Below, piece by piece: positions 13,895 to 42,622 of a DNA stretch of 64,000 bases. Numbering within the stretch: the first letter of the stretch is position 1; every line of letters begins with the position of its first letter. Source of the stretch: Prorocentrum cordatum. Taxonomy: Eukaryota. The position numbers and the translations under genes are program-made. The notes under the pieces were generated by a model that had not been told where the DNA came from, searched no databases, and was given only the letters and a program-made list of their open reading frames with translations. The stretch spans positions 1,798,001-1,862,000 of the forward strand of contig CAUYUJ010000002.1 in the NCBI GenBank assembly GCA_963575745.1, written 5' to 3'.

Positions 13895-14550
13895 ATGCCG
13901 GCGCTACTGCAGGTCGGCAGCGGCGACGCCGAGGTGCCCTTCGAACGCAACCAGCGCCAGAGAAAGGACGGGGACGACGAGGAAAACAAGAAGAAGACGT
14001 ACGAGGCGGCGAAACAACAGCTCCCCACTCACACCAAGAAGCTGATGACGCTCATCGTGAAACAGCTACTCCGCTGTGCCCGGCAGAACCGCGACATGAG
14101 CAGCGTCATCTTCGACACCTGGATCTTCAAGAGCGACAGCAAGCTCATCCTTCGCATTCAGGAGCAGACAGCCGCCTGCGGCAAGGTCACCAAGGAGAAG
14201 GGAAAAATCACGACCTCGGACCTCCACAGATCTACGCGATGGGAGGCCTACTTGCAGCGGTGAAGGAGCTTCAACTAGAGGACCCGCCCAAGACACAGGC
14301 CACGAAAATGTTCACGGACTACGACAACTACGACAACGAGCAGAAGTCCGAGCTGGTGCTCTTCTGCAACGTCGACCGCATGTACGAGAAGGAGAAGAAG
14401 AGGCTGAAGCTCGCGGTCCGCGAGCCACAGTTTCGGGGGCACCTGATGCAGGCGTTGAAGACGACCTCAGCCAAGCGGAAATACGGCAGAGCACAAGCGA
14501 CGCACATGGAACGGGAGCTTCAGGAACGGGTGGAACAGCTCTTGATGTGA
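13895..14550 (+). pseudogene. Conserved 3' ORF of family A retrotransposon (~218 aa, one -1 shift at the A run 14203-14207); function unknown
   Basis: ATG at 13895 reads MPALLQ...KEKG, then continues in the neighbouring frame as KNHDLGPPQIY...MERELQERVEQLLM*. Homologous along most of its length to 41139-41915. Confidence 0.75.
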
Positions 14551-14647
14551 TTACCGAGGACACGAGAATGGGTGGCACAGATCACAGTGGGATTACCGAT
14601 GACAGCAGAATGGGTGGGACAGCTCATGGCGGGATTACCGATGAAAA
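14549..14647 (+). repeat. 42-bp tandem repeat, about 2.4 copies
   Basis: gattaccga(g/t)gaca..agaatgggtgg.acag.tca..g.gg recurs at ~14549, ~14591 and partially at ~14633. Confidence 0.8.
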
Positions 14648-17352
14648 GGCTTCGGGCGGGGACGAGGCTGCAGCAATGAGCGAGAGTATTTCAGCTGCAG
14701 CACTGCGTGAGAACGATGCGACCCCAGTTGAGACCAGGAGCGTGCAGTCTGTCACGCTTAGCCCGTCCCCCGTCACGGATCTTCGGGTGTACACGATGTT
14801 TCTGGCCACTAAAAATGTTTTTGTTCCTGGTAGTAGTATTTTTTACAGTTTAGTCTCGAGCAAACACGTGTTGCAACAAGCTAGATTTTGGCATCGATCG
14901 CAAACTTGATCGTCCCGTTTTCTGGTGGGATCCCCTCAATCTCTCTACGTCAGAGGTCGTGGTTCTCATGCTGGGGCTTGGTCGAGCCCGTCGGCTGCGA
15001 GACCACCACATAGGGTGGGGGCTTTTAGGCCCGCCATAAAGATGGGACATCGCTCCGTTTTGAAGGAGAGTTGCGAGCTGCGTTTCGTGCACTAGCTTGT
15101 GATGCTTGAACCTCGGGGCGAATGATGCGAATGAATGAATGAACACGGCGGCATTGGCGCTTCGGTATTTGAGGCTTGGCCTTGTAACATTGGTATTCGT
15201 CATATGTCCATCACGGTATTTCCTCTTCGTCATTCTCGCCCTACCCTGCGAGTTCGTCCCCATCCTCAGCTCTTTGCTTGCGGAGGCTCAGGTTAGGAGA
15301 GCTCCTTGGGAGCTCCACAAAACTTGTAAATGCTTGTTGTGGCCTTCTGGAGGCCTCCTGGCTTCCTTCTGGGGGCCTCATGGGGGCTTCCCTAGGCGAC
15401 CCTGCTTCCAACCGCGGTCTCCCTGAACGACTTGGTCACGATTTGAAATGATTCGGGGGGCGTCTTGAGGCCATATTGGTCCGTTATGGCGCTCTCTTTG
15501 GGCCATATTGGGGCCCTGTTGGGCTGTCTTGGGGCTCCTCTTCGACTGCCTGGAAGCCCTCTTTGTTAGTTTGATGACGATTATCTGGCCTTCCGGGCGG
15601 TCTCGGATGCGTGGAAGATCGAGTAACAGACGGACCATCCCCCAGATCACACAACACCGTAGGAAATCAATGCTTGTTATGTTTCGAATGGTTCTCGGGG
15701 GTCTTCTTTGGATCGTCTGGTGGGTTTCTGGGAGCCCCTGTGGGCTCTCGCGGGGCCGTTCGGCCGCCCTCCTGACCAAGTTGGGCCGACTGCCTAGGCC
15801 CAGCAGGGGCTTCAGGAGCCCCGGAAAACACAGGGGACCGTCTGCAAGTGCGTCCAGTGCAGGGTGCGCCTGGGGCCAGGGATCTGGGTCCATTTTAGGG
15901 AGGGGTTTCCGCAGATTCTCCTCAGAGTGGAAAAATAGAGAGGGGAACATATAAAAACACACAATCCTATTCCTACCCATCGCTCGTTGCGCATGTATTT
16001 ATACATTTTTCATACATGCATACATACATACATACATGCATGCATACATGCATACATACATGTATACACACATCGGTTCTCATATCCCAATTCGGACGAT
16101 TCCATATTTCAGGCATATGGCATGTGTCTCTTCCGCTTGCAGGGGGCAGGCGGAAATTTAATTTATGTTCACCGTTGTTTCTGTCCATCTCATGTCTCTG
16201 TCCACTTATTCCGAAGGATGTGTGTTTATATTCCTGCTCCGCCCCATACGCCTCCTCCAAGTCAGCATATAATCCCACTATCCTCGCCTTCGGTCCTGCC
16301 AGCAACCCTCCAAGCGGGGTGCCCGTCGCGCCCCTCAAAAAAACCACACGAAGCCGGCGCCATTCTTTTCAGCACGGACGTGTTCTCGCCAACGTTGCAG
16401 CATGCACGGCGGGAACGGGACGCTGCGCACATCGCGCGCGCGAGCGAGCGAAGTGCCGTGTCAGCGCCGCGCGTCAGCGCCGCGCCCGCGCCAGGGTTCG
16501 CCGCACTCTTTCCCCGCCGGCTCGTCGGCGGCGGTGTCGCGTGCGCGGGCGAGCATGCGATTCGCGCGCAAGCAAGCGTCGCGCCGTTTCCGCTCGGAAG
16601 TATAGTAGCGTGCTTCGCTTGGTGCGGCGCATACTCTTCGCTCGCCCGGTCGTTGGGAGCGCGGCCCCGTGCTTGCGGGCGAAAGGATGGTCCCCCGCCC
16701 AGCGTCCTCCTCCTCCTCCTCCTCCTCCTCCTCCTCCTCCTCCTTCTCCTCCTCCTCCCCGCGCAGATGGGGTTCGAGAGTGGCGCTCCAGCTTAGACGC
16801 AGCGCTCCGGTCCGTCCCGTCGGAGGCATCATCGCCGCGCGCGCGAGGCCTGCGTGGCGTCGCCAGCCTTAAGCGCCGCGCGGTGGTTTTTGTTCCGAGA
16901 GTTCCGCTCCCGCTATTCTTCGGCGGCGAGGCATAGGCAGTCCGCACCAGCGTGGAACTAATCTTAGGTCGGGCACGTCACTCTACAGGAGAAAGATTCA
17001 AAAATAGTCAAAATGGTTTGGGGACGATTTGTTGAATCTGATTTTTTTTCAGTATTTGTTTATTCTTGTTTTTCCTCCAAAGTCTGCATGTAGGAGGACA
17101 TGCCCCAGGGGCAACCGAAAGGCGAATTGTCCGGCGTGCACGAGGAAGGAACGAAGACGAGCGAGGCCGCGCGAGGGGAGGAGCCCGCCTGTGTAAGGCC
17201 CTTGATCGTTGCTCGGCAGGACGTCGCAAGCGGGGCAAGGCGCGCGCGCGAGCGCCCGCCGTTCGCTGCAGGCGGAAGCGCGTGCCAGTCCCAGCATCCG
17301 ATGGTGACCGCACTGATGTCTGTGGCATGTGGGGATGGGTGGGAGTTGGTCC

Positions 17353-17550
17353 GAAGAACAGAAAGCGCCATAAACATAAACTGTTGGCGCTCAGCGCGGA
17401 TTTCTTGGATCCGCGCTGCGCCCCCCCCCGGCGGCGCCTCCGGCGCCGCCCCTGGCGCACTCCGCGCGCCAGGGCGGGGGGCCCAGCGCAGAGGCAAGAA
17501 ATCCGCGCGGAGCGCCAAAAGTTTATGTCGATGGAGTTGTTTCTTATTCT
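17353..17550. mobile_element. Palindromic MITE-like family D; other copies at 5552-5747, 6772-6905, 19681-19842, partial 50044-50095
   Basis: ~45-65-bp inverted arms: CATAAACTGTTGGCGCTCAGCGCGGATTTCTTGGATCCGCGCTG ... CAGCGCAGAGGCAAGAAATCCGCGCGGAGCGCCAAAAGTTTATG. Confidence 0.75.
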
Positions 17551-20248: not shown

Positions 20249-20289
20249 GTGGCGGCCTTCGCGCAGTTCGGCTCTGACCTGGACGCGTC
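20249..20289 (+). CDS. atp1: F1 ATP synthase alpha subunit, next exon (3' boundary 20286 or 20289)
   Basis: CAG|GTG GCG GCC TTC... encodes VAAFAQFGSDLDA(S), the exact continuation of ...AQYRE. Possible donors are GC|GT after 20286 or TC|GC after 20289. Confidence 0.9.
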
Positions 20290-20323
20290 GCCGCCTCGGA
20301 GTGCTCGAGTAGAAGGTTGACTA

Positions 20324-20509
20324 CCCAGACATGCGACATCCGATTTTTTTTGATACGGGGTCCCTGGAAGTCCCGACCTTTTCCCCAGTACCTGCTTTTC
20401 GTCTTGAGTCGTTTTTTGACTGTCCCGAGGCCCGGCGAGGGCCCCCCGAGGCCGAAAATTGGCAAAAATCTCCCGTCCTGATTTGTTTTACGACGCGATC
20501 ATGTCTGCG
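20324..20509. mobile_element. ~185-bp MITE-like family T with short TIR CCCAGACATG; other copies at 43576-43762, 44768-44945, 58027-58214, partial 42735-42885
   Basis: A shared internal sequence (ttcggcctcggg..ccctc..ggcctcg..ccgtcaaaaa..gactc..ccggtcccg.ggaaagggtcggg..tccaggga) occurs in both orientations, with termini cccagacatg...catgtctg. Confidence 0.72.
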
Positions 20510-24037: not shown

Positions 24038-24038
24038 C

Positions 24039-24108
<70 letters not shown>
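24038..24108. repeat. (GAC)n microsatellite; a (GTC)n tract occurs at ~58620-58715
   Basis: Seen directly in the sequence. Confidence 0.95.
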
Positions 24109-24840: not shown

Positions 24841-25515
24841 TCCCGGCTGGGTGGGGAAAGAAAGCGTGGACCCGATGACCCCCCCCCCTCCCCCCCCTAC
24901 CCCGGCAGAGCCCCCCCGGCCCCCCCCAGCAGAGCTGAAGCTCAGGTTGTAGCTTTCTTAAACTCACACGCCGGATCGGCGGATTACTGAAGGGGGTCCT
25001 GTCCATCCCCGATAGAGGAGCCTGATCTGCGCGCGCTCGGCCCTGGAGGACAGCCCGCTCAAGTCTCAGAGGATCCTCAGCGAGTACTTCGCGAGCCCGG
25101 CCCCCGAGGACCGTCCGCGCGCGCTCGAGGCGGCGAGGCCCGCGCGCTGGCGCCACGACGGCGCGTCCTCGGCAGGCAGCAGCCTGCTCGGGGAGCAGAG
25201 AAGCCCGAGCGAGTGCCTGCAGCGCGTTGGCCTGGAGGGCGGCAGCCCGCCCGAGGCATCGGGCGTCGCGGAATGGGGGGCGATACCCAGACCTCCTCCT
25301 CCTCCTCTTCCTCCTCCTCCGCCTCCTCCTCCTCCTTCTCCTCCTCCTCCTCCTCCCCCTCCTCCTCCTCCTCCTCCTCCTCCTCCTCCTCCTCCTCCCT
25401 CCTCCTCCCCCGCCTCCCCCTCCTCCTCCTCCCCTCCTCCTCCTCCTCCTCCTCCTCCTCCTCTTCTGCCCCCTCCCCCTCCTCCCCTTCCTCCTCCTCC
25501 TCCTCCTCCTCCTCC

Positions 25516-25547
<32 letters not shown>

Positions 25548-25582
25548 CTCCTCCTCCTCCTCCTCCTCCTCCTCCTCCTCCC

Positions 25583-25604
25583 TCCGTAGTCATTTTGGCT
25601 CAAG
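25583..25604 (+). other. DinoSL spliced-leader copy at the 5' end of a retrotransposon
   Basis: TCCGTAGTCATTTTGGCTCAAG matches DCCGTAGCCATTTTGGCTCAAG at 21/22. It follows a (CCT)n tract directly. Confidence 0.93.
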
Positions 25605-28600: not shown

Positions 28601-31350
28601 TGCAATGAGTTTGGGCTTCGCGTCCTCTTCGACGCTCTGGAGTGGGTGGTGACTGGGCAACGGTTCTTCCTGGCGTCTCATACTACTATTCAGGCCTTTC
28701 TACGCAAGGCCGTTACTGAGCACGAGCTGAGAGGCGGCGCATGCACACGAATTCCAGATAAGATACGAGTATTAGGCTTGAGGAACACGGATGTGAAGAT
28801 CACGTCGGCCGTCGTGAATCGCGCGTTGCGCCCTGTTGTGGCGCATGTCGCCCCTCGGGCCCAGCGTGGGTTTGTGCCTGGGCGTACTTTCGGGTTGCAT
28901 ATCCTGGAGGTTGATGCACATGTTCGGCAGCTGTCTGTGACATGTCCTCAGGGTCCTGGCCTGCCTCTCCTCTTCTCCCTTGACTTCGGCCAGGCCTTCC
29001 CCTCTCTGAACCAGGACTACATGCAAATGGTGCTGCAGATGTTGAAACTCCATGACGCCCTCCTCCTCTTCGTAAGCCCCCTGTGCGCCGCGATCGAGGG
29101 CGTCGTCGCTGTCGGCGGTGTGTTTCGGGTGATTCTCTGGTTTCTCAGTGGGGCCCTCCAGGGCTGCGGGCTCTCTGGGAGCCTCTGCGCGTTGAGTGCG
29201 GCGCCGTTCATCGATGACCTGGAGGTTTCGGTCGAAGTCCCTGGGCTTGGGCTGGTTCGGGCGTGCGCGGACGACATCGGCGGCTCGGTTCGATCGATCG
29301 CGGGGCTTCTGCAGGTCTCTCGCGACGCGCAGCTGGCTGAGGCTTTCGCCAACCTGGTCCTCAAGATCTAGAAATGCAAAGTGGTGCCCCTTGCTGGGCG
29401 CTTTACAGCTCCCTTGGCGGCCCGCGTGAAGGCTGCGATCTCGGAGGCTATCCCGTCTTGGGCTGATCTGGATGTAGTGTCGAAATTGCTCTACTTGGGC
29501 CTGTGGCTGGGCCCTGACGTTGGCCCCTGTGACTGCTGGACGGACCCTGCAGCCAAGCTTCGTCTGCGTGCACAGGCGATTGGCCGCGGCGCAACACCCT
29601 CCAGCGTCTCTGCCATCTTGTGCAACACCCGTGCGGTGGCCACTCTCTCTTACGTTGCGCAATTTGTCTGGCTGCCGCCCGCGCTCCTGGCGCTCGAGCT
29701 GCCGTCGCTGGCGCAGGCGCTTCGTGCGCCACTCGGCGCCCTCTTGCTGGAGTCCCGGGCGCAGCTGGACCTGTGGGGCGGGCCTCGCATTGCGCGCGCG
29801 GGGCACGTCGCCGTCGCCTCGCCGGTGCGCCCCGCTGCGTTCACCTCCCCCGAGCGCGCGCAGATCCTGGACTCGCTGGTTTCCTTTGTCCGCACGCACG
29901 ACGACTGGCGCACGCTGTGCACGCTTCGGCCTGGTCGTCTGCATCCGAGCTTCTGGCGCCCTGAGTCGTATGCGGAGACGTTGGCGCAGGCCGCTGCTGG
30001 GCAGGGCCCTCCTGGTCAGCCCTCGAACATGGCCCCCGTGGCGTGCGCGGCAGCCCGCGAGGAGTTGCTGGCCGCGGTGGACCGCCGCCCCCGCCCTCAG
30101 CGCGCTGCGCATCGAGCTCTTCGCGAGCTTGCTCGGGACGCTGCACCTCGAGCGGGCATCTTGGAGCTGAGACTACGAAAGCTGATTCCCTGACATCGCG
30201 CAGTGCTCGGGGGGATCGACTGGGACGCGATAGTTACTGTACTGAGGCGGTGTCCGACGTCGCGGGCGCGGGCTGCGATTCGGACTTGGGCTGGCGCTTG
30301 GCTCACCTCGCATCGCATCCTTCATGCGGGCGGCTGGCGGCTCTGCGCGCATGGCTGCACGGGCGCGCCCGACTCCGCTGCCCCAGGATGTTCGCTGCGG
30401 TGCGTCGGGCGCCGGTCAGATCTTGCCCTCTTTCCGTGCTACACCGCTGCTGCCTCCTGCCCCCGTCTATTGACAACGTTGCTGCAATGATGGCGGCATG
30501 CAGCATGTGCAGCACTACCCGCGTGATCGAGCAGTGGCCAGTGGACGAGAACCAGACCATCAGTTGCACTCTCGCGGGAGCACGGGCGACGCGGATGGTT
30601 TCGCCGCTGCGCCTCTCGCGCATGGAACGCGTCGCTCTCGAGGTGACGGACTTCGCGAGGAAGCGTCCATGCTCATCCTCCTCTTCTTCGTCGAGCACGT
30701 CCTGCTCGCGCGCGCCCTCGACGCCGCGTTCGAAGGGTTCGTCGAGTGAGTGGGCGGACCTGAGCTTCGACCCTGATGGTTGCGGTAGTGACTCCGACGG
30801 TTTTCGAGCGGTGCCGCGTATCTTGGCCACGCCTCCGCATCGAATCAGCGGAAGCCCGTGCTTGTCACCAGAGCTGGCGCCCTTTCCGACGGCGCGGCGC
30901 CGTCCGCGCCTGACGCGTGCATTGCCGCCCTCGAGCGCGTCGTCGGCCGCGTCGGGGACATGGCGGGGCCGCGAGTCCATGATACGTTCTCGTCTTTTTT
31001 TCATTGTTTTCTTCGTTGATGTCCTCTCCCTGTGCTGCGGGCTCGACTCAATCCGTTATGATTGGATCCTCGAGTGCGTCGATTTCCGCGCGCGCGAGCT
31101 CTTGCGCGCGCGACCGCCCGCGCAGCATCGCCTCAGCGCCTGTTTGTGGCAGTTTCAGCAAGCTCATTTTGTCAGCGGTGCCGAGGCCAGCCGTCGCTCT
31201 CCAGCGGCCGCTGTGCCCGTCTGTCCGATCTTCTCGCGTCTATGTCTCGGCCTCTGGCTGAATCTTCTCCACCCGTCCGTCTGTCCTGAGCGCTTCGACT
31301 GCTGCTGCCCATGCTGCTCCTCTCTCGCCCCCCACCCGCTCTGCGCGGAT
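25583..31350 (+). mobile_element. Near-full-length decayed non-LTR retrotransposon, family B copy 1 (coiled-coil ORF1, EN-RT ORF2); 3' end approximate
   Basis: ORF1 ~25762-26970 (LDAQALRLDEQDERLDKHGAQLQALQGEL). EN motifs FATWN, SLQEIR, GGAAILL, NGDFNF, SIDRVF, PDHTAV. RT motifs DGLP, RVLGLRNTDVKI, QRGFVPGR, SLDFGQAFPSL, GALQGCGLSG, ACADDI, LLYLG. C-terminal WAGAWLTSHR..CAHGC. Confidence 0.92.
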
Positions 31351-32380: not shown

Positions 32381-32429
32381 GGTCATCGGCGGCCCCCGCG
32401 GCGCCGCGGCACCGCGAGAGGGGGGTCAC

Positions 32430-35400
32430 CCTCCCCAGCCTGGCGCAGGCGTCGTCGACGGCGGCGGCCGCGGGCTCGACGGCTGCTGCAACTGGAGGTG
32501 GCTCACACCTCGCTCACAGCACATCACGGCCACAGCTCGTGGATGCCGACGCGGGGGCGAAATGGTGACAGCGAGAAGCCGATCGATCCTGGCTGGGGCT
32601 GCGTGGCTACTCGTCAATGCGGCTACGCGGGGAACTAGGCATCCAACCGGCGATGCCATCGCTGCGGCAGGGGCCGCGTGGACAAGCCCCCCCCCGATGG
32701 CCTGCCCGAGCGGCGCCCAGCTCGCCCCCCCGCGCCTCCGCGGCGCACTCGTCAGTCCAGCCGCCCCAGGGGGCAGGCCAAGGGCCGCGGGGGGGGCGAC
32801 GAGGAGCTTGCCGAGGAGCCCCCAGCTGCCGCCTCCGACGCTGTGGCCCGCGCCCGCAAGGCGCTCGGCGCGCCCCGCCGCCTTCGCCCGGAGGACGGCG
32901 CCCTCCTCGCGGCGGCCAAGACGGAGCTCCAGGAGGCAGAGGCGGCCGAGTTGGCTACCAGGACGCCAGACGACCTCTTTCGACGGGCCTTGGAGCGACA
33001 GTCCCAGTGGAGCCGCGGCGTCACAGAGCTTCGCGTGCAGGTGGCAGAGCTCAAAGAGCAGCTTGACGCCAAGACTGCTGAGCTCGAGGCCGCCGCAGCT
33101 GAGTTGGCCATCGTGGATTCTGGGGCGGCTACGGCGAGAGCAGCGGTTCCTGCGGCAGGGACTCGACCTGATGCGATCGCCAGCGGGGATTGCGATGTTG
33201 ATGACGCCGTTGCTCGCCCGGGGCGCGTCGTCAACAGCGCGACGGCGGTCTCTGCAGGGAACGAGGGCACCTACCTCGAGTCGCTCAGCAAGCACTACAA
33301 GGGGCCGCGCCTGACCATCGCGCGGCAGCGCCAGGGGGCGGCGACGCAGCCCGCGGCCCCGCGCGCAGCAGTCTCAGCAGCGCCCATGGCAGCATCGCCC
33401 GTCGCCCCAGATCCTTGGGGCGCCGCGACCCCCAGCGAGGATGGGGATCGGGAGACGACCGCAGGCAGCTACTTAGCTTGATACTGATCTTCATCTCGGT
33501 GCTCTGCCCTGTGCACGAGGGCCACCGGCTCGACATCGCGCGGCGCCAGCTCGAGCGACGGCAACGCCCTATGACAGCCGCCGCGCTCGGGCTGCGAGGA
33601 ACCGTGGTAATGCAGTTCTGGTTGGATGTGCTGACACGGGGTCACCGTCTGGAGTGTGCAACGTCACGGGAACGGGCACTTACACGCCTACTGCGACGAC
33701 AATGTTGGCCGAAGCTAGGGGGCACAATGTATGCGTTCCTCCTTCGGGTCCCGTCTCGCCGCTGGGCAGTTTTACTTTGCCGATGCGAGCAACAGGTCCT
33801 GGGCGCGCTTCTCAGCGCCAGCACCTTGCACGTCGCCGCAGGGTCGCCCGTGCGCGCGGCGTCGTCGACGGACGAGCCGACCTCCGCTTCGCGCGTTCGA
33901 GGTCCGCGAGGCCCCCCAAGCCCGCTGCGCGCACTGGCCAGGTCTGGTGCCCCTGCCGAAGGGGGTGGTCGATGCCGCCTCGCCCGGCGACGATGTTGCG
34001 AGGGGTGTGTAGGGCTGGGCAGCGCGCCGAGGCGAGCCAACCTTGCCCGCGCGCTCCCTGACGATTGCACGACCGATGATGATCAATGGAGTTGGATACG
34101 CCACCTCAGCACCTACTTGCGCCAGTGGGCGGGGGGCCAGATCGCCTGGAAGACCTCGTGGCCGATGGCGACTGGCTGTGGTGGTGCACTCATTACGCCG
34201 AGCTTCCCATATGTGAAGATGAGGCTCTCAGCGCCTGGGCTGCCGACCCCGCTCGTATACGTGCCCTTGCTGAGCACGCGCGCCTCTGCGCATCATTTGA
34301 GAGCGGGGGGGGGGCGGGGGGGGGGGGATCCGCCAGCGCATCATCCGTTGCTAGAAGATATGCGACCGCAGCCGCGCCAAGTGGCACGCGCTGCTGTCGA
34401 ATCGTCTGCGCCTTGCGCGTAACGCCCGCCTGGCCATCGCCATCGAGCAAGCGGGCCAAGCCGATGCCGACCTCCTAGTTAGTTAGGCGACGCGGCAGTT
34501 CGAGACGGCGCTTCAGATGATTGCCGTCGCCAGGGATTCATTCCGCCAGACGGGTCACCGCTACCGGCCGCTGGAGCTGCTGCGCCCACCGCGGGGGGTG
34601 TTCCCATGGACAGCGAGCAGGGTGGCCAGGACATGGATGCCGATGGCGCCGACGCGGAGACCACCAACCTGACGCAGGCAAAGGCTTCATCTACTGGGCT
34701 GCTGGCGGCGGAGCGCCATCGTCGCAGTCAGCGCCCCTTCCCGCGCATTGCGCGTGCGAAACCCAGCAGGATTTCGATTTCCCTGCGCCAGTGGCGACCA
34801 GGCGCTACGAAAGAGATCTGCAGATCGAGCCAGAACTCTGCTGGACGCGGCCCCCCTGGCGGCCAGTCGCCCAGGAAGCGAGCAGGCAAGCGGAGGCATG
34901 TGCTGAAGATGGCCTCATTCGACAGCTCCGGTTGGCCGCAGATGCAGGACCTCCTGGACCAGATGCGTCGCGTTCAGGCGGTATCAGGTCAAGGGCTACT
35001 CCTGCAAGGCCATCGTCGGATTCTCGCTGAAGAGTGGTGCCTGAAGCGAGGCTGGCAGGCCTTCATCTTCGATGCGCAGCTCAGTGATGACGGTAAGTCC
35101 CTTGGTGGAGTTGGGCTTTTCGTTCGGGGGCATATCAGCGCGGCGCCGTTGCAGGCGTTCGCTGCCGCGCACGAGCTTATCCCAGGGCGCAGTGTGGTCA
35201 TGATGATTCAGTATGGGATTCGTGGTGGCCTCATTGTTGGCTCAACGTACCTGCAGCAGGGGCCCCGCTTGAGCGGTGTCAACGTGGACTACCTCCGCAC
35301 CATTGACGAGCGCCTCAGCTACTACGCCACACCGTTTGTCATGGCAGGTGACTGGAACATGCCGCTAGAAGTTCTGCAGATGTCAGACTTTTCATTGAGG

Positions 35401-35610
35401 TTGCGGGCCACGCCAGTTGCTTCTGAGGAGGGCACCTACAAGGGCCCCGCCACAGCCAGCCACTCGACGTTGAACTACTGGCGCGGCCGATGGAAGGCCC
35501 CCCGTACGAGCAACCTTGAACATCCCCTTCTCGGCGCAACTGAGCCCGCGGATGCGTTCCCCCCCAGCCGAATATTGTGGAGACGCTTTTGGAGGACCGT
35601 CGAACCCTTA
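32430..35610 (+). mobile_element. Fragment of a non-LTR retrotransposon (coiled-coil ORF1-like region plus APE endonuclease), 3'-truncated
   Basis: Coiled coil in 32678-33481 (ELRVQVAELKEQLDAKTAELEAAAAEL). EN motifs LLLQGH, SLGGVGLFV, GSTYL, MAGDWN in 34990-35360. Confidence 0.7.
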
Positions 35611-38327
35611 GCTCATTTCTGCATAGTCTGATCGCAACCCAAGTTCCTGCCTGAGCTGACTCCAGCAAAATTCCATTTCCTCAGCCTAGATGCGACGGTG
35701 ACCCTCGCTGCCGGGTGGCTGCAAAGCGCCGGGCCTTTAGCCTGCGAGATGACCAGCAGCAGCTTCTCGAGCTGCAGGCACAGAAAATACACAGCCCGTG
35801 ATAAGGTAGTCTCTACATACTTCGTGCTGCCCGACGCCTGTGATGCGATTTCGTCTACCACATTGAACAGGGCAGCCGACCAATAGAGTTCTCTGGTAAG
35901 GCCCAAGGGGTCCATGAGCATCACACGTAGAAGAGTAGTAGCAAACCCACGCCCCGCAATGATCCCTTTGGAGGCAAGCACAGGGGCCCCAACCGCACCA
36001 CACACTTTGATAATCCTCCTCCCTCGGTAGAGCGACAGCAACAGGCGGAGCTTCATGATATTGAACTTGTGCTTGACGGCCGCAACGGCCCAGGTAATGA
36101 CAGACCTTCTCGCGGGCCTTCGCGGGGTCCACTAGGCACGAGCCTGAGCAGCCTCCAACGCTGACATGCTGCTCCACCGTCAAACTCTGCTCCCAGACTG
36201 CACGTTCACAGTTCTTGCCGTGGACGCCATGCAAATAATCGCGATTATTTTCACGCTCCCACCGCTTTATCTCGCCCCTTGACAGCTTAGAGAACACCCT
36301 GGTGGTAGTTGGTAGCAGAGCTATCGGGCGGAACCCTCCTTCAGGCTTGGCGAGCATCGCAAGGATGGTGGCGAGGAGACTGGCGGGGTACGTGCCTAGG
36401 TACTCCATCTTGGCCCACAAAGCTCCTAGAACCTCCAGGAGGCCATCCGAGGCCTTGTCCAGATCCCGCGGTCGAAGAGCGTCGACCCCACAAGCCGTGC
36501 GTTTCGGGGACTTCCTGATGGCCCCACGGATGTCACTGACCGGCTTCTCTTCAGAACACAACTCCTGCACCGAGACTCCCTGCTCAGCGGTCTGGGCCTG
36601 GATCTGGCGCGTCAGGTAATGGATTGGGCCAGGGAACTTCGAGGCTTCAGGGTGGGCCTCCCAGATCTCATTCCAGTACTTGGTAAGGCCATCAACTGAC
36701 TCCTGAGGCCCCAACGGAACAGCGAAGCCTCCAGACTTGATGGTGCTCAGCTCGGGCGGCGCCCAGCCAATGGGACTCTGAGAATATTTATGCGCCTTGC
36801 CGGCGCCTGCGGAAACAGCTTCCTGCACCCATTGGCGCCAGCGCTTGCTGCGCTCCGAGGTGAACTTGCGCTCGAGCACACGTGCAAACCCTTCAGCTTC
36901 CTCTCCCCACGCCTGCAACCGCTCGAGGGGCGCGTGAAGCACGCTGCCAAAAGATGGCACCCACTGCTGCCAGGTACTGTCTTCGCGCAGCTGCTTAGGT
37001 CCCCGCCCGACCGCTTTCAGGAGCCCCAGAAGGCCCTTCTTTTTGATATGCACCAGCTCCGAGAAACGCTCCGAAATCCGACGCCACCCTCTGCTCTCAG
37101 GACTCCCGACGGGACGCCGACCACCTGAAGTTCTGACAGCAGAGATTTTGAAAATAGCAGGCTGCTCAGCTCTGCCGAAATATTTTGACTGGTCCAACAC
37201 ACCGTGATCGGCCCCAAGCTCGCGCCCGAGCGATTCCACAAAGGCTCTGTAACAAACACCCAATGAATCACGACCCCCGACCGATCTGACAGATTCAAGC
37301 AGATCCCCATAGTCCTGCGGTGCTGGCATGGGCCCTATCACGGCTTCCTGCGGGAACATCCTCGGCGGGCGCAGCGACTGGGCAAGGACGTTGAGCGGCT
37401 CGCCGCGGAACTTGACCACCACAGGCCAGTGCGGCTTCACTGAAGCCTTCCTACTGATCGCACAAGAGTGGACACTGCCTGCCAAGCCCGCAGACACCAC
37501 AGAGTAATCGATGGTTCTCCAAACCTTGGCCGTGGACTTACAGGCGTAGGTCGGTGGTTTGACAATCTGACCCCCGAGACGCCCAGGCCATCCCATGTTC
37601 TGGAGAACGTCAGGAGACACATTCCAGTCGCCTCCTACAAAGAACGAACAACCCCAAGGGTGTAACTGCTCGCCGACCCGACTGAGAATTTGGCACCCCG
37701 TTGGGCCCAGCGGGTCTTGTTCAGGCAGGTAGATGGACCCGAGGATGAAGCCCCCAGGCACAGACGCGTTGATCCACATCAGCTGTTGTCGGCGTGGATG
37801 CGGCAAACTCTCGGGGTCCGTCGGCGGCAAGCCCAGGCCAACGAACTCCCTGCGCGCCACCGTCGCGCCTCCCGAGAGACCTCCTGCACTGGTGACCCCG
37901 GACGGGTGGAACTTAGCCTGCCAGCCTAACTTCTTAACCTGAGATTCGCACTCGGCGCGGTCAGACGGGTCAACAGTTAGCTCTTGAAGCATTACGATGT
38001 GACTCGACGCTTCCCCTTGGAGAAACTGCTTCCCTGACGACCATGCTGTTGTATTACAGGTTTCGAGACAGAACAATTCCCCCTGGCACGACCCTGCAGA
38101 TTTCTTAGCATTCTGCCCAGGTTGGGCAGCTCGGTCCCTCCGAATCCGCCGGGGCCCCGCCAGAGGCCAGGCGCTAGGGGGAGGGGGGGGGAAGGGGCAG
38201 GCAGCACAGGGGGGGTTCGAGCTAGGCGGGGGCGGGGGCCGAACCAGGCGCCAGAAAGAATGCGCCAGGCGGCCTCTCGAGGCCCGCCGCCGCATCACCC
38301 CGCCAGCTGGCGGGGCAAGGCAGGCTG

Positions 38328-39518
38328 CTACCCACCAGGCGTCCTGCCCTGCACCTCCGCTGCCGCCCCTGTGGCGCTCGGGGCGCCTCCAGCACCCCCT
38401 CCAGCACCTCCCCCACCTCCCTTGCCGCCCAAAGCCTCGGTGGCCTTGGCGCGCACATCGACCTTAGGCGAGCTGGCGGTGGCGGCAGTGGCTCCGCCAC
38501 CGCCTGCGGCACGGCCTGTGCCTGCCTGGGCGTAAGATCCAGCCGCAGCAGCAGCTGGGGGGGGCCCGCCAGCAGGCGGCGGAGCCGCGATGGGCTCGCC
38601 CTCGGCGTTGCCGCTCTCGCCCTTCCGCTTCTTCTGCAGCCGCTGGACGTGCTCGGAGTGCTCCTGTCGCAGCTTCTCGGCCGTCTCTTTGGCGGTGCCG
38701 AAGAGCTTCTTGGCCACTTCTTGCACCCCCTGCCACAGCTGCTCCTTCCTGGCAGCTGTGTCCTTCTTATCCGTCTCGGTGAACTCATAGATGTCGGCAT
38801 GGCCGAAGAAGTCGTCGCAGCCGTCGAGGTCTATGCACGACACGTCCCCTGCGAGCAGCTGGTCCAACGATATCTTCGTCGTCCCCGCGGGCTTGTCACT
38901 GTGCGCCTGGCTGTGCATGGCGCTGAGCAAGCCCCTGTATTCGTCGTCCGCTTCACTGAGCTTCGTCTGCAACATCTGGACCTCTGCCTCTTGATCAGAG
39001 ACTCCCTGGCGCAACCGCCCCAGCATGTCGATCGCCCCGTCCATCATCCTCTCGAGCTGCTCGACCTGGGCGCGCGCGCGGCGTGCCCGTACCTGGAGCG
39101 GAGGCTCCTGGGGCTGCTGCGCTTCCTTCTTTTTGAGTGCCAACAACTTCTCATACTTGGTGACGGGCCCTTTGTCGCCTGTCTTCTTGCACAAGGAGAT
39201 GGGCTGGTCGATCTCGTCGATCGCGAGCTGTGTGTCCCCGTTGCCGAGGCCAGGCGGTGGTTGTAGCCCGACTGAACGAGGCCTTGTGCCCCCTGCGGCT
39301 TCGACCTGACACTCGCCTGCATCGCTCGGCGGGAACGCCCCAGGAGACCCGGCAGTGAAGCAGTGCCACATGTTCCAGCCGTGCTTCTTGCAGCCACAGT
39401 GCTCGCACCTCCACCGACGTAGGGGCCCCTTCGAGCCACTTCGCTTGGCACCCGTGCGGTCATCTGCCCACGATACAGTCTCCTGGCGCCTTCGTGAGCC
39501 GGCATCTCCCCACGCCAT
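38328..39518 (-). CDS. ORF1 of family C retrotransposon: RanBP2-like Cys finger plus coiled coil
   Basis: Open from ATG 39518 (MAWGDAG...). Contains WRCEHCGCKKHGWNMWHC and a long heptad region (QVEQLERMMDGAIDMLGRLRQGVSDQEAEVQMLQTKLSE). The last finger cysteine is missing. Confidence 0.7.
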   Translation of the reverse strand: MAWGDAGSRRRQETVSWADDRTGAKRSGSKGPLRRWRCEHCGCKKHGWNMWHCFTAGSPGAFPPSDAGECQVEAAGGTRPRSVGLQPPPGLGNGDTQLAIDEIDQPISLCKKTGDKGPVTKYEKLLALKKKEAQQPQEPPLQVRARRARAQVEQLERMMDGAIDMLGRLRQGVSDQEAEVQMLQTKLSEADDEYRGLLSAMHSQAHSDKPAGTTKISLDQLLAGDVSCIDLDGCDDFFGHADIYEFTETDKKDTAARKEQLWQGVQEVAKKLFGTAKETAEKLRQEHSEHVQRLQKKRKGESGNAEGEPIAAPPPAGGPPPAAAAAGSYAQAGTGRAAGGGGATAATASSPKVDVRAKATEALGGKGGGGGAGGGAGGAPSATGAAAEVQGRTPGG

Positions 39519-39676
39519 GAAGGAGCGCGGAACTTGGGAGTGGGAGCAGGAACGCACAGAGAAACAAAACAGTGAGGACCCTCGCTTTGGGCAGGGCCGC
39601 TGATCGAGGGTCGCGAGGGTCTCCTTGACCAGCTCGAGCCCCAACCCCAGGGAAATCGAAGGCCCCGGGCAATGGC

Positions 39677-39710
39677 CTTGAGCCAAATGGCTTGCGCCAG
39701 TGGCTACGGA
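39677..39710 (-). other. Tandem DinoSL relics
   Basis: Minus strand reads TCCGTAGCCACTGGCGCAAG-CCATTTGGCTCAAG-(GCCATTG): a degenerate full SL followed by a relic beginning at CCATTT. Confidence 0.88.
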
Positions 39711-39756
39711 CCTCTTTCCTCCTCCTCCCCCTCCGTCTCCTCCTCCTCCTCCCCCT

Positions 39757-42622
39757 CATCCAGGAGGACTTAGGCATTGGGCTGTATGTGGACGACGTAT
39801 CACGGATGCATATACATGCATATGAAGCGTCACCACGAGCTATGGAGCAACAGCTGAACAAAGCTACAAGCAAGCTGATCGCGTGCATCGGGGAGACGGG
39901 ACACAAACTGAAGGAAAGCAAATCTAACCACATCACGAACGTTATCGGGACTGGATCGCTTGCAGCCGTCAAAAGCATTGCAGCTTCAAGAACAGTCGTG
40001 GGCATAGTCGTTGGGGAAGCACGCGCACTTGGTCCCGCGATATCGTTCGGCGGCAGCCTTCGAGCCGAACTTCGAGGGCGAATTAAGGCAGCCAGAGCTG
40101 GGTGGAGGTCGCTTGGCAAATTGTGGTCCGAGCCGATCCAACTGCGCATGCGAAGGCTACGTTTTGTTGCGTGTGTGCAAGGAGCAGGCCTCTCAGGTCT
40201 CACTGGATTTGTTCTGCCGCGCAGCTTCGCAGACAAGCTCGACGCGGTTTTCATCAGGTTTCTGCGAGTACTCAGCAGAGGTTCAACGGAATAATTCGAT
40301 TGAAAAGAGAGAAGCGAGACACACACACACAAACGTCCTAAGCCAACACAGGATTTCTCGGGGAGTTGTGGAGTTGCGCATCCAGGGGATTCGGCGGTAT
40401 CAGAAGATGGCCAGGGACCCCCAGCAGCACTCGCAGGTTCTCGCAGGGATCTTCGGAAGCACCCAGATGGACCTCAAAGTGGGGCGCCCCCGACTTGGAC
40501 CCCAAGGAGAGCTAACTTAGCACAGCGCCCCGCGGGCCCGACAGTTCAAGGAGGACTTAGAAGTTTTCGCCAAGATCGATCCAGAGTCGCAGTTCGCGCA
40601 GGCATAGCAGAGAAGAGAAGGTTTACTCGATTTTCACGACGGAGAATTATCGCAAAGCGTTCTTCAAGAAACGCCCCAGCACATCATACACTTGTTCGAC
40701 AAGCACTGCGAGGTAGAGGAGAAGGGGGAGGCCTTCGGCAGGAACGAGCATGTGGAGGGGGAGGAGGACACGAACGAGCATGTGTCCACGCACGAAATGC
40801 CAGAATGAGAAGTTTGTGGGAGCGTGTTGTTTCGACAATGAGGGCCTTGACGGCCCGCCTGAACAAGACCTACAACATGCGGGAGTTGTATTCCATGGTC
40901 ACATCGACCAATGTGTGCCCTTGGTGCCGCAGAGCGTTTGCATCGAGGGCCGGCTGTGCACGGCGCGCGTGGACAATGTCACGTACGAGCCCCATGCGAT
41001 GTCTAACCAGAGCCGTTTCTTTCGAGTTTGCGCCGGTAGAGACATCATCGTATACTTGTAGCTTGTGCGCTCACAGTACTTCAGGGCTCTCACAACCTCT
41101 CGATTACGCCAAGCAGCACGCCGCAGGACCAGCCGAAGATGTCAATGTGGATGATCGGCCTGCCTGCCCAGGGGGCAGCAGGCTCCGCGGCAGCCGCGGC
41201 AGCGCCAGCACGAGGAGGACGCCGCATCAAGCGACCCCGTGGCAAGGGGGGTGGGCCTGGCTCAGACGACGATGCGGATGCGGCACTCTCGGGGCGAATC
41301 TTCACCGCGCAGAAGCTGACGCTCAACAACGCCCAGGTGCTACGCATCTTGATGGGAGCTCTGTTGGACTGCCTGCTGCTGGCGCTGACGCACCAGGTGG
41401 TGCTGGTGACAGACGGGCAGAAGACGGGCCAGGAGTACCACCGCATCGCAACGGAAGAGGGGCGCAAAGTTCTCGTTCCGCCGCACCTGCACATCTTCGG
41501 GTGTATTATTCCCACGCTCGCGAAGATGCAGGGCTTGCCAGAAGATACCAAGGCGATCCTCGAGCCGCTCGAAAAGCTGATGACAGTGATGGACAGAGAG
41601 TTGGTGAACGAGCTGGTGCGCTACTTCCGCATCAAGAAGACGTACAACGAGGGCAACCAGAAAGCCGACCAGGCCAATATTCACATCATGGTGAATCCCA
41701 TCGCGGTCAGCCCGTTCATGAGACCTCAGTTGTTGCAGAGATACAAGGAGAAGACGGGAGACCAGGCGGACATGCCTCAAGCAACGCTCGCGGAGATCCG
41801 CCTTCACATCATCAAAGGGCTGGTGGCCACAGGAGGCGTCGTGAAGTTGGGGAGTCCACCGCCAGGAGCTCTGGAGAGAGCCGTTCAAGCGTCGGTGCAG
41901 GAGCAATCGATGTAGCTGGACTTCAGAGAATGGCTCGTGCGGGCAGCGAGAGAGCAAAGTCAATATTGAGAGAGTTGAACAGACAGCGTCTGGAGTGAGA
42001 GGTGCACTGTATATCATGCCATGCAGTTTCCATTCAGTACTTAAATGCTGGAACGGATAAGTTTCTCTGCGTGGCTTGGATTTGCCTGGCAGTCGGTACC
42101 GAGAAGAACTACGCCGACAGCTGGACCTTCTACTGAGCTTGATGCAGTGTCAACGTGTTGAGAGAATGCTATCACTTTATTTTCCAAGCCTGGCGGCAGC
42201 AGGAGTCTGAGGAGGGGTGGAGGGATGTTGGGTTGGGAGGCGGAGGGGTCTGGAGGGGAGGACTTCGCAGCACGAAGGCACGCGTGCCGCAAACTTTTGA
42301 CGCGGCCCGAAGAGGCCGCTGCACTGCTTTTGTTTCTTATGGTCCCTTTCCCCGAGGAGCCTCCCCCCGCACCTGTCTTCCCCGAGGTTGGGGTCATGGG
42401 CCCAAGTGCTCTAAGCCTCAGCGCTTTGCGAGTTGACCGAATGCGGTGCGCCTTCGTGCTAACGCGGGCTGTTGAAGGCCCGAGATAGGCTACAAAGTCC
42501 CGCAGGCTTGCCCGAGATGCGCATTGATCGTATCAGCAGCAATTGTTCGTGGCTAGAACTCTCACCCAGCAGAGGTGAACCAGAGAGCAGAGGACTACGG
42601 CTGCCCAGGTCTTGCTTGCTTG
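39757..42622 (+). mobile_element. 5'-truncated non-LTR retrotransposon, family A copy 2 (RT C-terminal half, C2H2 fingers, nested 3' ORF)
   Basis: GLYVDDV, RALGPAI..ELRGRIKAARAGWRSLGKLW, ELRIQGIRRYQKMARDP..VLAGIFG (compare copy 1 ELAVRRIKWLQSMCRH..TLVAIFG), TNVCPWC, CSLC. Flanked by CCT tracts on both sides. Confidence 0.85.
41139..41915 (+). CDS. Intact conserved 3' ORF of family A retrotransposon (258 aa); function unknown
   Basis: Uninterrupted ORF sharing four motif blocks with 13895-14550. Confidence 0.78.
   Translation: MSMWMIGLPAQGAAGSAAAAAAPARGGRRIKRPRGKGGGPGSDDDADAALSGRIFTAQKLTLNNAQVLRILMGALLDCLLLALTHQVVLVTDGQKTGQEYHRIATEEGRKVLVPPHLHIFGCIIPTLAKMQGLPEDTKAILEPLEKLMTVMDRELVNELVRYFRIKKTYNEGNQKADQANIHIMVNPIAVSPFMRPQLLQRYKEKTGDQADMPQATLAEIRLHIIKGLVATGGVVKLGSPPPGALERAVQASVQEQSM

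What the first reader, a model, noticed from the sequence alone, without database searches (positions are those of the whole stretch)
13895..41915. Unrecognised conserved ORF downstream of RT in two diverged retrotransposons (family A)
Seen: in both copies an ORF starts directly after the last C2H2 finger (13895-14550 and 41139-41915). The two proteins align in four ordered blocks although DNA similarity is not evident: LIVKQLLRCARQNRDMSSVIFDT / TAQKLTLNNAQVLRILMGALLDC; LGPPQIYAMGGLL / LVPPHLHIFGCII; SELVLFCNVDRMY / NELVRYFRIKKTY; ALKTTSAKRKYGRAQATHMERELQERV / GLVATGGVVKLGSPPPGALERAVQASV. Copy 1 has no ORF1 upstream of EN, which starts ~230 nt after the putative SL relic. Established: LINE accessory ORFs normally lie 5' of the RT ORF. 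Inference: this is a LINE-like clade with inverted layout (EN-RT-ZnF followed by an accessory ORF), and the 3' protein may substitute for ORF1 in RNA chaperoning or targeting. I recognise no domain in it.
Basis: partly seen in the sequence, partly recalled or inferred. Interest (0 to 1): 0.85.

Follow-up and report, generated by a model that had tools for sequence, protein, structure and literature searches.

The report
Conserved third gene in dinoflagellate LINEs
A lineage of jumping genes in dinoflagellates carries, right behind its reverse-transcriptase gene, a second conserved gene for a protein with no recognisable relatives, an unusual layout whose function is still untested.

Summary
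Both stretches encode members of one real protein family. A profile built from 77 outside proteins scores copy 2 (41139-41915) at E 7.6e-56. It scores the two halves of copy 1 at 6.5e-14 and 1.4e-18.

Three corrections apply. Copy 1 is not one ORF: a one-base frameshift near 14203-14207 splits it. Copy 2 is a 5'-truncated fragment, and the endonuclease at 34483-35631 belongs to a different LINE family. The pairwise similarity alone is only borderline (E 0.003-0.02).

In both copies the ORF starts 19-28 nt after the last zinc finger, in the +1 frame relative to ORF2. Three database proteins, one from Prorocentrum cordatum, carry the same ORF2-end-to-ORF3 junction. The family has 97 representatives at E <= 0.001. 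It has no Pfam hit (0 of 78 members) and no sequence match in the PDB. The AlphaFold model is confident (pLDDT 89-93) but matches no known fold above noise.

Best reading: an element-encoded accessory protein ("ORF3p") of a dinoflagellate LINE lineage. A role replacing ORF1 is plausible but untested. How it is expressed and where ORF2 ends remain open.

The parts
9842..10648 (+). Copy 1: endonuclease-like region of ORF2, in several broken frames. Met at 9842.
   Evidence: Motif reading only. A GDFN-like stretch at 10322-10351 resembles the N-terminus of P0003. A DH-P stretch lies at 10628-10648. There is no Pfam hit at E <= 1.
12015..12617 (+). Copy 1: RT core in one frame. Four RT motifs in canonical order at 12144-12173, 12246-12266, 12411-12449 and 12555-12569 (FADD).
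   Evidence: BLASTP to P0003 residues 482-557 gives E 0.001 at 31% identity. Motif order and spacing match the RVT_1-positive LINE at 28178-29371. There is no Pfam hit of its own.
13012..13894 (+). Copy 1: C-terminal part of ORF2 with three Cys/His fingers (13552-13641, 13684-13746, 13801-13866).
   Evidence: tblastn of P0011 gives E 2.3e-15 and of P0003 E 3.7e-13.
13895..14203 (+). Copy 1 ORF3, N-terminal part (+1 frame relative to ORF2).
   Evidence: Family HMM E 6.5e-14, profile positions 24-108.
14206..14550 (+). Copy 1 ORF3, C-terminal part, now in the ORF2 frame after a one-base shift at the A-run 14203-14207. Stop at 14548-14550.
   Evidence: Family HMM E 1.4e-18, profile positions 103-233. 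Sequence.
14524..14644 (+). 42-nt tandem repeat, 2.9 copies, starting in the last codons of copy 1 ORF3.
   Evidence: TRF score 151.
39779..41138 (+). Copy 2: 5'-truncated remnant of ORF2, from the YVDD box (39779-39796) to the last finger (41057-41119). It has at least two frame changes and in-frame stops at 40292-40294 and 40301-40303. The first His of the last finger is replaced by Tyr.
   Evidence: tblastn of P0003 residues 575-844 covers 40100-40912 (E 1.6e-56 and 2.1e-27). P0011 and P0008 also match. Frames are and coordinates.
41139..41915 (+). Copy 2 ORF3: intact, 258 codons, +1 frame relative to the finger frame.
   Evidence: Family HMM E 7.6e-56. It is 69% identical to the C-terminal part of P0003 (Prorocentrum cordatum). 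AlphaFold pLDDT is 88.8.
41916..42147 (+). Copy 2: 3' flank that diverged copies in a DNA run still cover.
   Evidence: Contigs of run X1 are laid up to the bin 42057-42147.

Best explanation
The two ORFs are copies of a real, conserved gene ('ORF3'). It belongs to a dinoflagellate non-LTR (LINE-like) retrotransposon lineage whose main ORF reads endonuclease, reverse transcriptase, Cys/His fingers.

ORF3 begins with its own ATG 19-28 nt after the last finger, in the +1 frame. It is carried along with the 3' part of the element when the element is copied. Copy 2 is a 5'-truncated insertion that keeps an intact ORF3. Copy 1 is an old, full-length but decayed insertion with one frameshift in ORF3.

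ORF3p is about 220-280 aa. It has a disordered, mixed-charge, Gly/Ser/Lys/Arg-rich N-terminal tail, one long helix and a compact alpha/beta domain. The strand order of that domain (b-a-[helical insert]-b-b-a-a-b-a) is ferredoxin/RRM-like.

The following is shown: homology, family size, conserved junction, and a confident fold with no known relative.

The following is inferred. ORF3p is an accessory protein of the retrotransposition particle, most likely binding the element's RNA or ORF2p. In this lineage it takes the place that the 5' ORF1 protein has in ordinary LINEs. It is made from its own start codon, either on a separately processed (possibly spliced-leader trans-spliced) RNA or by an unconventional translation event.

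My odds: a real element-encoded gene, about 0.9. A functional stand-in for ORF1p, about 0.35.
For: Family reality:
- An exhaustive search of 1.84 billion representatives found 97 proteins at E <= 0.001, 15 at <= 1e-10 and 3 at <= 1e-30.
- 93 of the 99 proteins held start with Met.
- Conserved positions include invariant P115 and nearly invariant L62, R69, Y100, G113, G238, P241 and E246.

Both window copies are members.

Linkage and position:
- Both copies use the same +1 offset: 41139-41057 = 82 nt and 13895-13801 = 94 nt.
- P0003 is a 1096-aa gene model from Prorocentrum cordatum. It joins EN, RT, a finger and ORF3, and is 69% identical over 97% of copy 2.
- P0011 carries RT C-terminus, a finger and ORF3. 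P0008 carries the last finger and the ORF3 start.
- The ORF2 C-terminal part and ORF3 diverge together. Copy 2 is closest to P0003, P0011 is intermediate, and copy 1 is far in both.
- In a midpoint-rooted FastTree of 81 sequences over 212 columns, copy 1 and copy 2 fall on opposite sides of the root (no support values read). So the layout spans the family's breadth.

ORF3 is part of a repeat. 97 contigs of DNA run X1, at 80-100% likeness, lie over 39600-42147, covering 28 of 30 bins and including ORF3. The listed indels in ORF3 are a 6-base loss (2 contigs), a +1/-1 pair 3 nt apart (1 contig) and one 1-base loss (1 contig).

Fold: pLDDT 88.8 and pTM 0.83 for the whole protein, 92.8 and 0.86 for residues 76-258.

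Complementary pattern in this window. The LINE copies that have a coiled-coil ORF1 (38328-39755 minus strand, 25954-27081, 45707-46312) show no ORF3-family hit. Copy 1 has ORF3 and no detectable ORF1.
Against: - There is no evidence of expression. No RNA run is available, and the spliced-leader idea is untested.
- The tail is only weakly basic: median net charge +1, positive in 50 of 78 members. The core has median charge +2, ranging from -10 to +9. A nucleic-acid chaperone is therefore not obvious.
- No structural match rises above noise. The best Z is 5.0 for the core (PAN3 C-terminal domain). Cas6, RAMP and S6-type ferredoxin-like folds score Z 3.3-4.1.
- The ORF2 frame has no stop codon before or within ORF3 in either copy. 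A simple termination-reinitiation scheme therefore does not fit these copies, and a fusion product cannot be excluded.
- Genomic linkage is documented for only 2 window copies and 3 of 99 database proteins. The other family proteins come without context.
- The absence of ORF1 rests on one decayed copy.
- EN and RT in this lineage are assigned from motifs and from similarity to P0003, not from any Pfam hit.
Confidence: 0.6

Rival explanations
1. ORF3 is not a separate gene. It is the C-terminal domain of the ORF2 polyprotein. It would be reached by a programmed +1 ribosomal frameshift, or be simply in frame in active copies, with both window copies being frameshift mutants.
For: No stop codon closes the ORF2 frame before ORF3 in either copy. 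P0008 and P0011 read from the finger region into ORF3 in one frame. Only 19-28 nt separate the finger from the ATG.
Against: Two very divergent copies (33 of 195 identical positions) show the same +1 offset and each has an ATG at the start of the conserved part. 93 of the 99 proteins held start with Met, and most are stand-alone proteins of about 200-280 aa. Many members carry a short Trp-containing motif within about 25 residues of that Met (listing; my regular expression counted 25 of 78, and more are visible by eye). I saw no known +1 slippery site by eye, which is a weak test.
Confidence: 0.2
2. ORF3 is a cellular (host) gene family, or a captured gene. It would lie beside these elements by 3' transduction or chance, with no role in retrotransposition.
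For: Most family proteins in the database come without context, so stand-alone genomic copies cannot be excluded. Copy 2's ORF3 is intact while its ORF2 remnant is broken.
Against: The junction to the last finger is the same in deep branches of the family. ORF2-end and ORF3 divergence go together. ORF3 is covered by many diverged repeat copies in run X1. Given the rate of frame breaks in the ORF2 remnant, zero breaks in 777 nt of ORF3 is not unusual (my estimate, about P 0.3).
Confidence: 0.07
3. ORF3 is the ORF1 of a second element lying in tandem downstream, or a chance ORF in G+C-rich DNA.
For: G+C-rich DNA here gives long open frames in many frames.
Against: Profile E-values are 1e-14 to 1e-56, against 7.5 bits for the best of 400 shuffles. 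There is no room for a 3' UTR, tail and 5' UTR between finger and ATG. No EN or RT follows either copy. There is no similarity to the ORF1 of family B (hhalign probability 0.07%).
Confidence: 0.02

Closest known systems
LINE ORF1 proteins (for example the L1 ORF1p type: coiled coil, RRM, C-terminal domain). Recalled knowledge, not from a call.
   Same: An element-encoded, non-enzymatic-looking accessory protein of a non-LTR retrotransposon. It has a disordered N-terminal part, a long helix and an alpha/beta domain with ferredoxin/RRM-like strand order.
   Different: It is encoded 3' of ORF2 rather than 5'. There is no sequence similarity: 0 of 78 members hit any Pfam family. There is no relation to the coiled-coil ORF1 of the family-B LINE in the same window. 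No ORF1p structure appears among the 50 listed fold matches. Oligomerisation is untested.
SymbioLINE-Dnmt of Symbiodinium (PMC5890265; passages read).
   Same: A dinoflagellate LINE lineage with an unconventional accessory ORF, old and diversified.
   Different: There the extra ORF (a DNA methyltransferase) lies upstream of the RT ORF, in the usual ORF1 place. Here the extra ORF lies downstream and has no recognisable domain.
ORF3 genes of LTR retrotransposons and Athena Penelope-like elements of bdelloid rotifers (PMC5408684; abstract and passages read).
   Same: Family-specific third ORFs sit 3' of the polymerase gene and are shared and kept within retroelement lineages. In the passages read they are described as typically expressed as separate transcriptional units.
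   Different: Those are LTR or Penelope-like elements. Their ORF3s are env-like, GDSL esterase or DEDDy exonuclease. This is a LINE-like element with an uncharacterised alpha/beta protein.
DIRS-1 of Dictyostelium (PMC5006619; one figure legend read).
   Same: Overlapping ORFs in different frames at the 3' side of the RT gene, with a +1 frameshift proposed but not determined.
   Different: That is a tyrosine-recombinase retrotransposon, and its overlapping ORF is the recombinase.

Membership tests
Non-LTR (LINE) retrotransposon with AP-type endonuclease | Reverse transcriptase domain with the LINE motif series | tested here: inconclusive
   Four RT motifs lie in canonical order in one frame of copy 1 (12144-12569), and there is a YVDD box in copy 2. 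BLASTP to P0003 gives E 0.001. Pfam RVT_1 did not hit copy 1, copy 2 or P0003. There is no BLASTP similarity to the RVT_1-positive RT at 28178-29371. No PDB sequence hit.
Non-LTR (LINE) retrotransposon with AP-type endonuclease | AP-endonuclease-like domain N-terminal to the RT | tested here: inconclusive
   GDFN-like and DH-P-like stretches are read by eye in copy 1 and P0003. Pfam Exo_endo_phos hit only the other LINE families of the window, not this one.
Non-LTR (LINE) retrotransposon with AP-type endonuclease | Dispersed multi-copy repeat with 5'-truncated copies | tested here: met
   There are two copies in the window. Copy 2 starts inside the RT. 97 diverged contigs of a DNA run lie on copy 2.
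Non-LTR (LINE) retrotransposon with AP-type endonuclease | 3' poly(A) or simple-repeat tail and target-site duplications | tested here: inconclusive
   No poly(A) run is seen within about 900 nt after either ORF3. Element ends are not defined, and target-site duplications were not searched.
LINE ORF1 protein (L1 ORF1p-like) | Encoded 5' of ORF2 | tested here: not met
   It is encoded 3' of the last finger of ORF2 in both copies.
LINE ORF1 protein (L1 ORF1p-like) | Sequence or profile similarity to known ORF1 families | tested here: not met
   0 of 78 members hit any Pfam family at E <= 0.001. hhalign against the window's own family-B ORF1 gives probability 0.07%.
LINE ORF1 protein (L1 ORF1p-like) | Coiled-coil oligomer plus RRM-type RNA-binding fold | tested here: inconclusive
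   The strand order is ferredoxin-like. The best fold matches are below noise: Z 5.0 or less for the core. RNA binding cannot be tested here.
C-terminal domain of ORF2 (single polyprotein) | Same reading frame as the RT and fingers | tested here: not met
   There is a +1 offset in both window copies. Two database proteins (P0008, P0011) are in frame.

The most novel reading that the evidence does not exclude
A whole lineage of dinoflagellate LINEs has given up the 5' ORF1. Instead it encodes, downstream of and overlapping the end of ORF2, a protein of a previously unseen fold that does ORF1's job. The host's spliced-leader trans-splicing, or an unconventional translation event, would let one element RNA yield both proteins.

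A bolder variant: the ORF2 frame really runs on across ORF3, having no stop in either copy, so that ORF3 is overprinted inside ORF2.
Probability: 0.2. Interest if true: 0.8.

Novelty: new variant of a known kind. Interest (0 to 1): 0.62.

Why it matters
LINEs are thought to need an RNA-binding partner protein encoded upstream of the polymerase. This is a large, old lineage: 97 clusters at 50% identity, with deep branches sharing the layout. Its only partner gene appears to lie downstream and to have no known fold. That would widen the known architectures of non-LTR elements.

It would also give a name and context to an unannotated protein family that inflates dinoflagellate gene counts. It would offer a handle on how multi-gene retroelement RNAs are expressed in organisms that trans-splice their mRNAs. 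Finally, the protein is a candidate new fold for structure determination.

Tried and rejected
Searches and tools that gave nothing:
- No whole genome is held for the window.
- Word-index searches found only P0002 (near lengths) and P0003 (longer lengths).
- Scans for genomic context found nothing. Alignments A1 and A2 were too diverse to give a pattern. P0001 on metagenome contigs gave none of 103 pattern matches confirmed. A4 on metagenome contigs gave 0 of 25. A4 on viral contigs gave 0 of 13.
- Sequencing runs: no RNA holder is listed, so expression and the spliced-leader idea could not be tested.
- In one search the bins 42148-42300 had no cover and run X2 laid nothing. This is not used as evidence.
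- Codon-position test on the variants: only 8 of the 40 listed places fall in ORF3 (4 at third positions), and 315 places were not shown. That is too few.
- Complex prediction with two copies of residues 43-258 gave no verdict.
- ESM Atlas was unreachable three times, then gave no usable hit.
- Earlier findings of this scan: nothing.

Fold and sequence comparisons that gave nothing:
- Foldseek against the PDB and BFVD gave nothing at E <= 0.001.
- VIA wide on the whole model matched only the long helix (Z 6.7, about 60 residues aligned). On the core the best Z was 5.0.
- The PDB profile search gave only chance-level hits at E 0.0033 or worse.
- phmmer of P0003 and of the family-B ORF2 against PDB sequences gave 0 hits.

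Ideas dropped:
- HUH-nuclease or metal-site reading of the 'GPPH-x-H' motif. The two His are replaced by Tyr, Phe or Gln in many members, including copy 1. The motif also caps a helix rather than lying in a strand.
- Relation of family-A ORF2 to family-B ORF2: no BLASTP similarity.
- Traces of a translated spliced leader at the N-termini of the 99 proteins: none. The one 'ILAQ' match in P0016 lies inside the conserved helix.
- A conserved ORF2 tail beyond the ORF3 stop: none. BLASTP of the two ORF2-frame translations gives E 0.057, only where ORF3 forces it.
- Alignment A5 was too ragged to use.

Literature: four full-text searches and passages of PMC11453091 turned up no description of a 3' ORF of this kind in a LINE. 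Repbase and subscription journals were not searchable.
Full report
**What the window is.** The DNA is G+C-rich, 55-71% in 2-kb windows, and full of retroelement fragments. The closest named relative of the finding is an 'unnamed protein product' of the dinoflagellate Prorocentrum cordatum. Two near-perfect relics of the dinoflagellate spliced leader occur in the window, at 25583-25604 and 45201-45222. I therefore treat it as dinoflagellate nuclear DNA. No whole genome is held.

**Check of the observation, copy 2.** Positions 41139-41915(+) form an intact ORF of 258 codons. It starts 19 nt after the last Cys/His finger of the upstream frame (41057-41119).

**Check of the observation, copy 1.** The ATG at 13895 lies 28 nt after the last finger (13801-13866). 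Blocks 2-4 lie in the frame of the fingers (13012..14550). The gene therefore carries a one-base frameshift. The family profile places the shift between 14188 and 14206, at a run of five A.

**Is the similarity real?** Pairwise similarity of the two proteins is weak.
- BLASTP gives E 0.019 and 0.12, 0.46, and 0.003 with X at the break.
- tblastn of either protein against the window does not find the other.

The outside world decides the matter.
- An exhaustive HMMER search of 1.84 billion representative proteins with copy 2 found 97 proteins at E <= 0.001, 15 at <= 1e-10 and 3 at <= 1e-30. Most are 200-280 aa.
- I built a profile from 77 of them, those of 180-300 aa. I left out 21 shorter fragments or longer fusions and the window's own protein.
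- This profile scores copy 2 at E 7.6e-56, the copy 1 N-part at 6.5e-14 (profile positions 24-108) and the copy 1 C-part at 1.4e-18 (positions 103-233). Nothing else in the six-frame window scores better than E 0.3.
- Read through with X at the break, copy 1 scores 121.7 bits. The best of 400 shuffles scores 7.5 bits.

**Anatomy of the two elements, copy 1 (about 9842-14910).** This is a full-length but decayed copy.
- An endonuclease-like start lies at Met 9842.
- An RT core with four motifs in canonical order lies in one frame (12144-12569).
- The C-terminal region has three fingers. ORF3 follows, and then a 42-nt tandem repeat that begins in its last codons.

**Anatomy of the two elements, copy 2.** This is not a full element.
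- P0003 residues 575-1096 map to 40100-41894, and nothing of its first 574 residues maps anywhere in the window.
- The recognisable RT begins at the YVDD box at 39779.
- The plus-strand endonuclease at 34483-35631, which a reader might take for copy 2's, belongs to another LINE family. It matches the minus-strand ORF2 at 35737-38463 at E 7e-15. That minus-strand element has its own coiled-coil ORF1 at 38328-39755.
- Copy 2 is thus a 5'-truncated insertion, as is usual for LINEs.
- Its ORF2 remnant is broken, with at least two frame changes, two in-frame stops and a damaged last finger. Its ORF3 is intact. With about 2-3 breaks in about 1.4 kb of ORF2 remnant, no break in 777 nt is unremarkable (my estimate).

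**How good is 'RT'?** Pfam gave no RVT_1 or Exo_endo_phos hit for this lineage: not for copy 1, copy 2 or P0003. PDB sequence searches were empty. The assignment rests on three things.
- Motif order and spacing, which match those of an RVT_1-positive LINE in the same window (28178-29371, E 3.5e-5).
- BLASTP of the copy 1 RT core to P0003 at E 0.001.
- Endonuclease-type stretches read by eye.

I call it LINE-like with that caveat. No clade placement was possible.

**Linkage of ORF3 to the element.**
- In both copies ORF3 is in the +1 frame relative to the last finger (offsets of 82 and 94 nt).
- Of the 99 family proteins held, a profile of the ORF2 end finds upstream ORF2 sequence in three. P0003 is EN-RT-finger-ORF3, a gene model that bridges to ORF3 through what looks like a predicted intron. 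P0011 is RT end-finger-ORF3. P0008 is last finger-ORF3 start.
- P0091 joins an endonuclease-like N-terminus to ORF3, by eye.
- The ORF2 end and ORF3 diverge in step across the four linked pairs.
- In a midpoint-rooted tree (FastTree, 81 sequences, 212 columns; support values not read), copy 1 and copy 2 sit on opposite sides of the root. The layout is therefore not a peculiarity of one subfamily.
- Contigs of a DNA run show that the whole of copy 2, ORF3 included, is a diverged multi-copy repeat. 97 contigs were laid, covering 28 of 30 bins. Of these, 11 were at >= 99% likeness, 8 at 95-99%, 22 at 90-95% and 56 below 90%. The listed indels inside ORF3 are mostly frame-preserving.
- An ORF1 of a tandem downstream element is excluded by the 19-28 nt spacing and by the lack of any following EN or RT.
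- The remaining 95 family proteins carry no context, so 'always 3' of this RT' is not shown.

**The protein.** The conserved core reads roughly KL-L---Q--R-L ... AG--Y---V ... LGPPH-H ... FR ... G-AP-G-LER--Q. P115 is invariant, and L62, R69, Y100, G113, G238, P241 and E246 are nearly so.

AlphaFold with the 78-row alignment gives a confident model (pLDDT 88.8, pTM 0.83). Residues 1-42 are disordered, a long helix spans 43-75, and an alpha/beta domain follows. The domain alone gives pLDDT 92.8. Its order of elements, b1-a-(three helices)-b2-b3-a-a-b4-a, is that of a ferredoxin/RRM-like split b-a-b fold with a helical insert. This is my reading of the DSSP string, as no coordinates were available.

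Fold searches found nothing above noise.
- Foldseek against the PDB and BFVD found no match at E <= 0.001.
- The exhaustive aligner gave Z 6.7 for the long helix only.
- For the core it gave Z 5.0 for the PAN3 C-terminal domain, 4.1 for Cas6, 4.0 for an S6 permutant and 3.3-3.5 for RAMP proteins. The tool's own guidance treats Z under 8 as possibly only a common arrangement.
- Pfam: 0 of 78 members hit.
- PDB profile search: chance-level hits only.
- ESM Atlas: no usable hit.

The two His of the 'GPPH-x-H' motif are not conserved; copy 1 has Gln and Tyr there. I therefore do not think it is an enzyme. The N-terminal tail is rich in Gly/Ser/Ala/Pro (median 38%) and Lys/Arg (17%), but its net charge is only about +1 at the median and is positive in 50 of 78 members. 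Many members have a short Trp-containing motif a few residues after the start Met.

**How it most likely works.** It is shown that this is a conserved gene, physically part of the 3' end of a LINE-like element and co-diverging with it.

It is inferred that it encodes an accessory protein of the retrotransposition complex. The best guess is a partner that binds the element RNA or ORF2p and takes the role that ORF1p plays elsewhere. In favour is a complementary pattern in this one window. The three LINE copies with a coiled-coil ORF1 have no ORF3-family hit, whereas copy 1 has ORF3 and no detectable ORF1. That is four elements and one decayed witness for 'no ORF1', so the support is weak. ORF3 is not a displaced ORF1 homologue (hhalign probability 0.07%).

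Expression is open. The gene has its own ATG in both copies, and 93 of the 99 proteins held start with Met. A separate product is therefore my first choice.

Two other LINE copies in this window begin with a spliced-leader relic. This indicates that LINE RNAs of this organism were trans-spliced before being copied back into DNA. It makes a trans-spliced sub-message conceivable, but nothing here tests it.

**An unexplained point.** In neither copy is the ORF2 frame closed before or within ORF3.
- In copy 2 it runs to 41998, 83 nt past the ORF3 stop.
- In copy 1, allowing for the shift, it runs to 14909.
- Codon shuffles predict 4.4 stops over ORF3 in copy 2, and 1.4 + 1.8 in copy 1. None is seen.
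- Other ORFs of the window also show fewer stops than shuffles predict, 0.4-0.9 times the expectation. The joint probability is therefore roughly 0.005 by my estimate, suggestive only.
- The two ORF2-frame translations share nothing beyond what ORF3 forces.

Either the ORF2 stop was lost in both old copies, or ORF2 truly overlaps ORF3, or a frameshift fusion is made. Young copies would tell.

**Comparison with what is known.** Accessory ORFs of LINEs lie 5' of the RT gene; this is recalled knowledge. In dinoflagellates a LINE lineage with a methyltransferase as ORF1 has been described, again with the extra ORF upstream (PMC5890265, passages). Third ORFs 3' of the polymerase are known from LTR retrotransposons and Athena Penelope-like elements (PMC5408684, abstract and passages). 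Overlapping 3' ORFs are known from DIRS-1 (PMC5006619, one legend). Four full-text searches and a recent review of dinoflagellate genomics (PMC11453091, passages) gave no description of a LINE with a conserved 3' ORF of this kind. Repbase and non-open journals could not be searched, so prior description there cannot be excluded.

**Verdict.** This is a real and interesting feature: a new variant of a known kind of element, carrying an uncharacterised and apparently new-fold protein family. The functional claim remains a hypothesis.

Noticed in passing
window 25583-30193 (+): A 22-base spliced-leader relic with 1 mismatch lies at 25583-25604 and is directly followed by ATG. Downstream lie a coiled-coil ORF1-like frame (25954-27081), an endonuclease (27419-28177, Exo_endo_phos E 0.024) and an RT (28178-29371, RVT_1 E 3.5e-5). 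This looks like a LINE copy made from a trans-spliced RNA.
   Followed up: partly
window 45201-47686 (+): A second spliced-leader relic with 2 mismatches lies at 45201-45222. It is followed by an ORF1-like coiled-coil frame (45707-46312, tblastn to the family-B ORF1 at E 5e-4) and a zf-RVT-like stretch (47018-47686, E 0.0035).
   Followed up: partly
window 34483-39755: A second LINE family ('B') is present. On the minus strand it has ORF1 with a coiled coil (38328-39755) and ORF2 with EN and the RT N-terminus (35737-38463). It faces a plus-strand fragment with a B-type endonuclease (34483-35631), to which it is 27% identical at E 7e-15. The 5' end of the minus-strand element abuts the 5' truncation point of copy 2.
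   Followed up: partly
window 13895-14909 and 41139-41998 (+): The ORF2 reading frame has no stop codon across the whole of ORF3, or for 83-359 nt beyond it, in both copies. Codon shuffles predict 4.4 and 3.2 stops over ORF3.
   Followed up: partly
window 14524-14644 (+): A 42-nt tandem repeat of 2.9 copies begins inside the last codons of copy 1 ORF3.
   Followed up: no
protein P0002: A 166-aa protein, 72-75% identical to copy 2 ORF3, is labelled Pyramimonas sp. (a green alga) in EukProt. Given its closeness to the Prorocentrum-type sequence, it may be a dinoflagellate contaminant or a mislabel. This was not checked.
   Followed up: no
window 42620-42710, 25100-25590 and others: Long triplet microsatellites (CCT/GAG type) give poly-Pro, poly-Ser, poly-Leu, poly-Glu or poly-Arg frames on both strands next to the retroelement fragments.
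   Followed up: no
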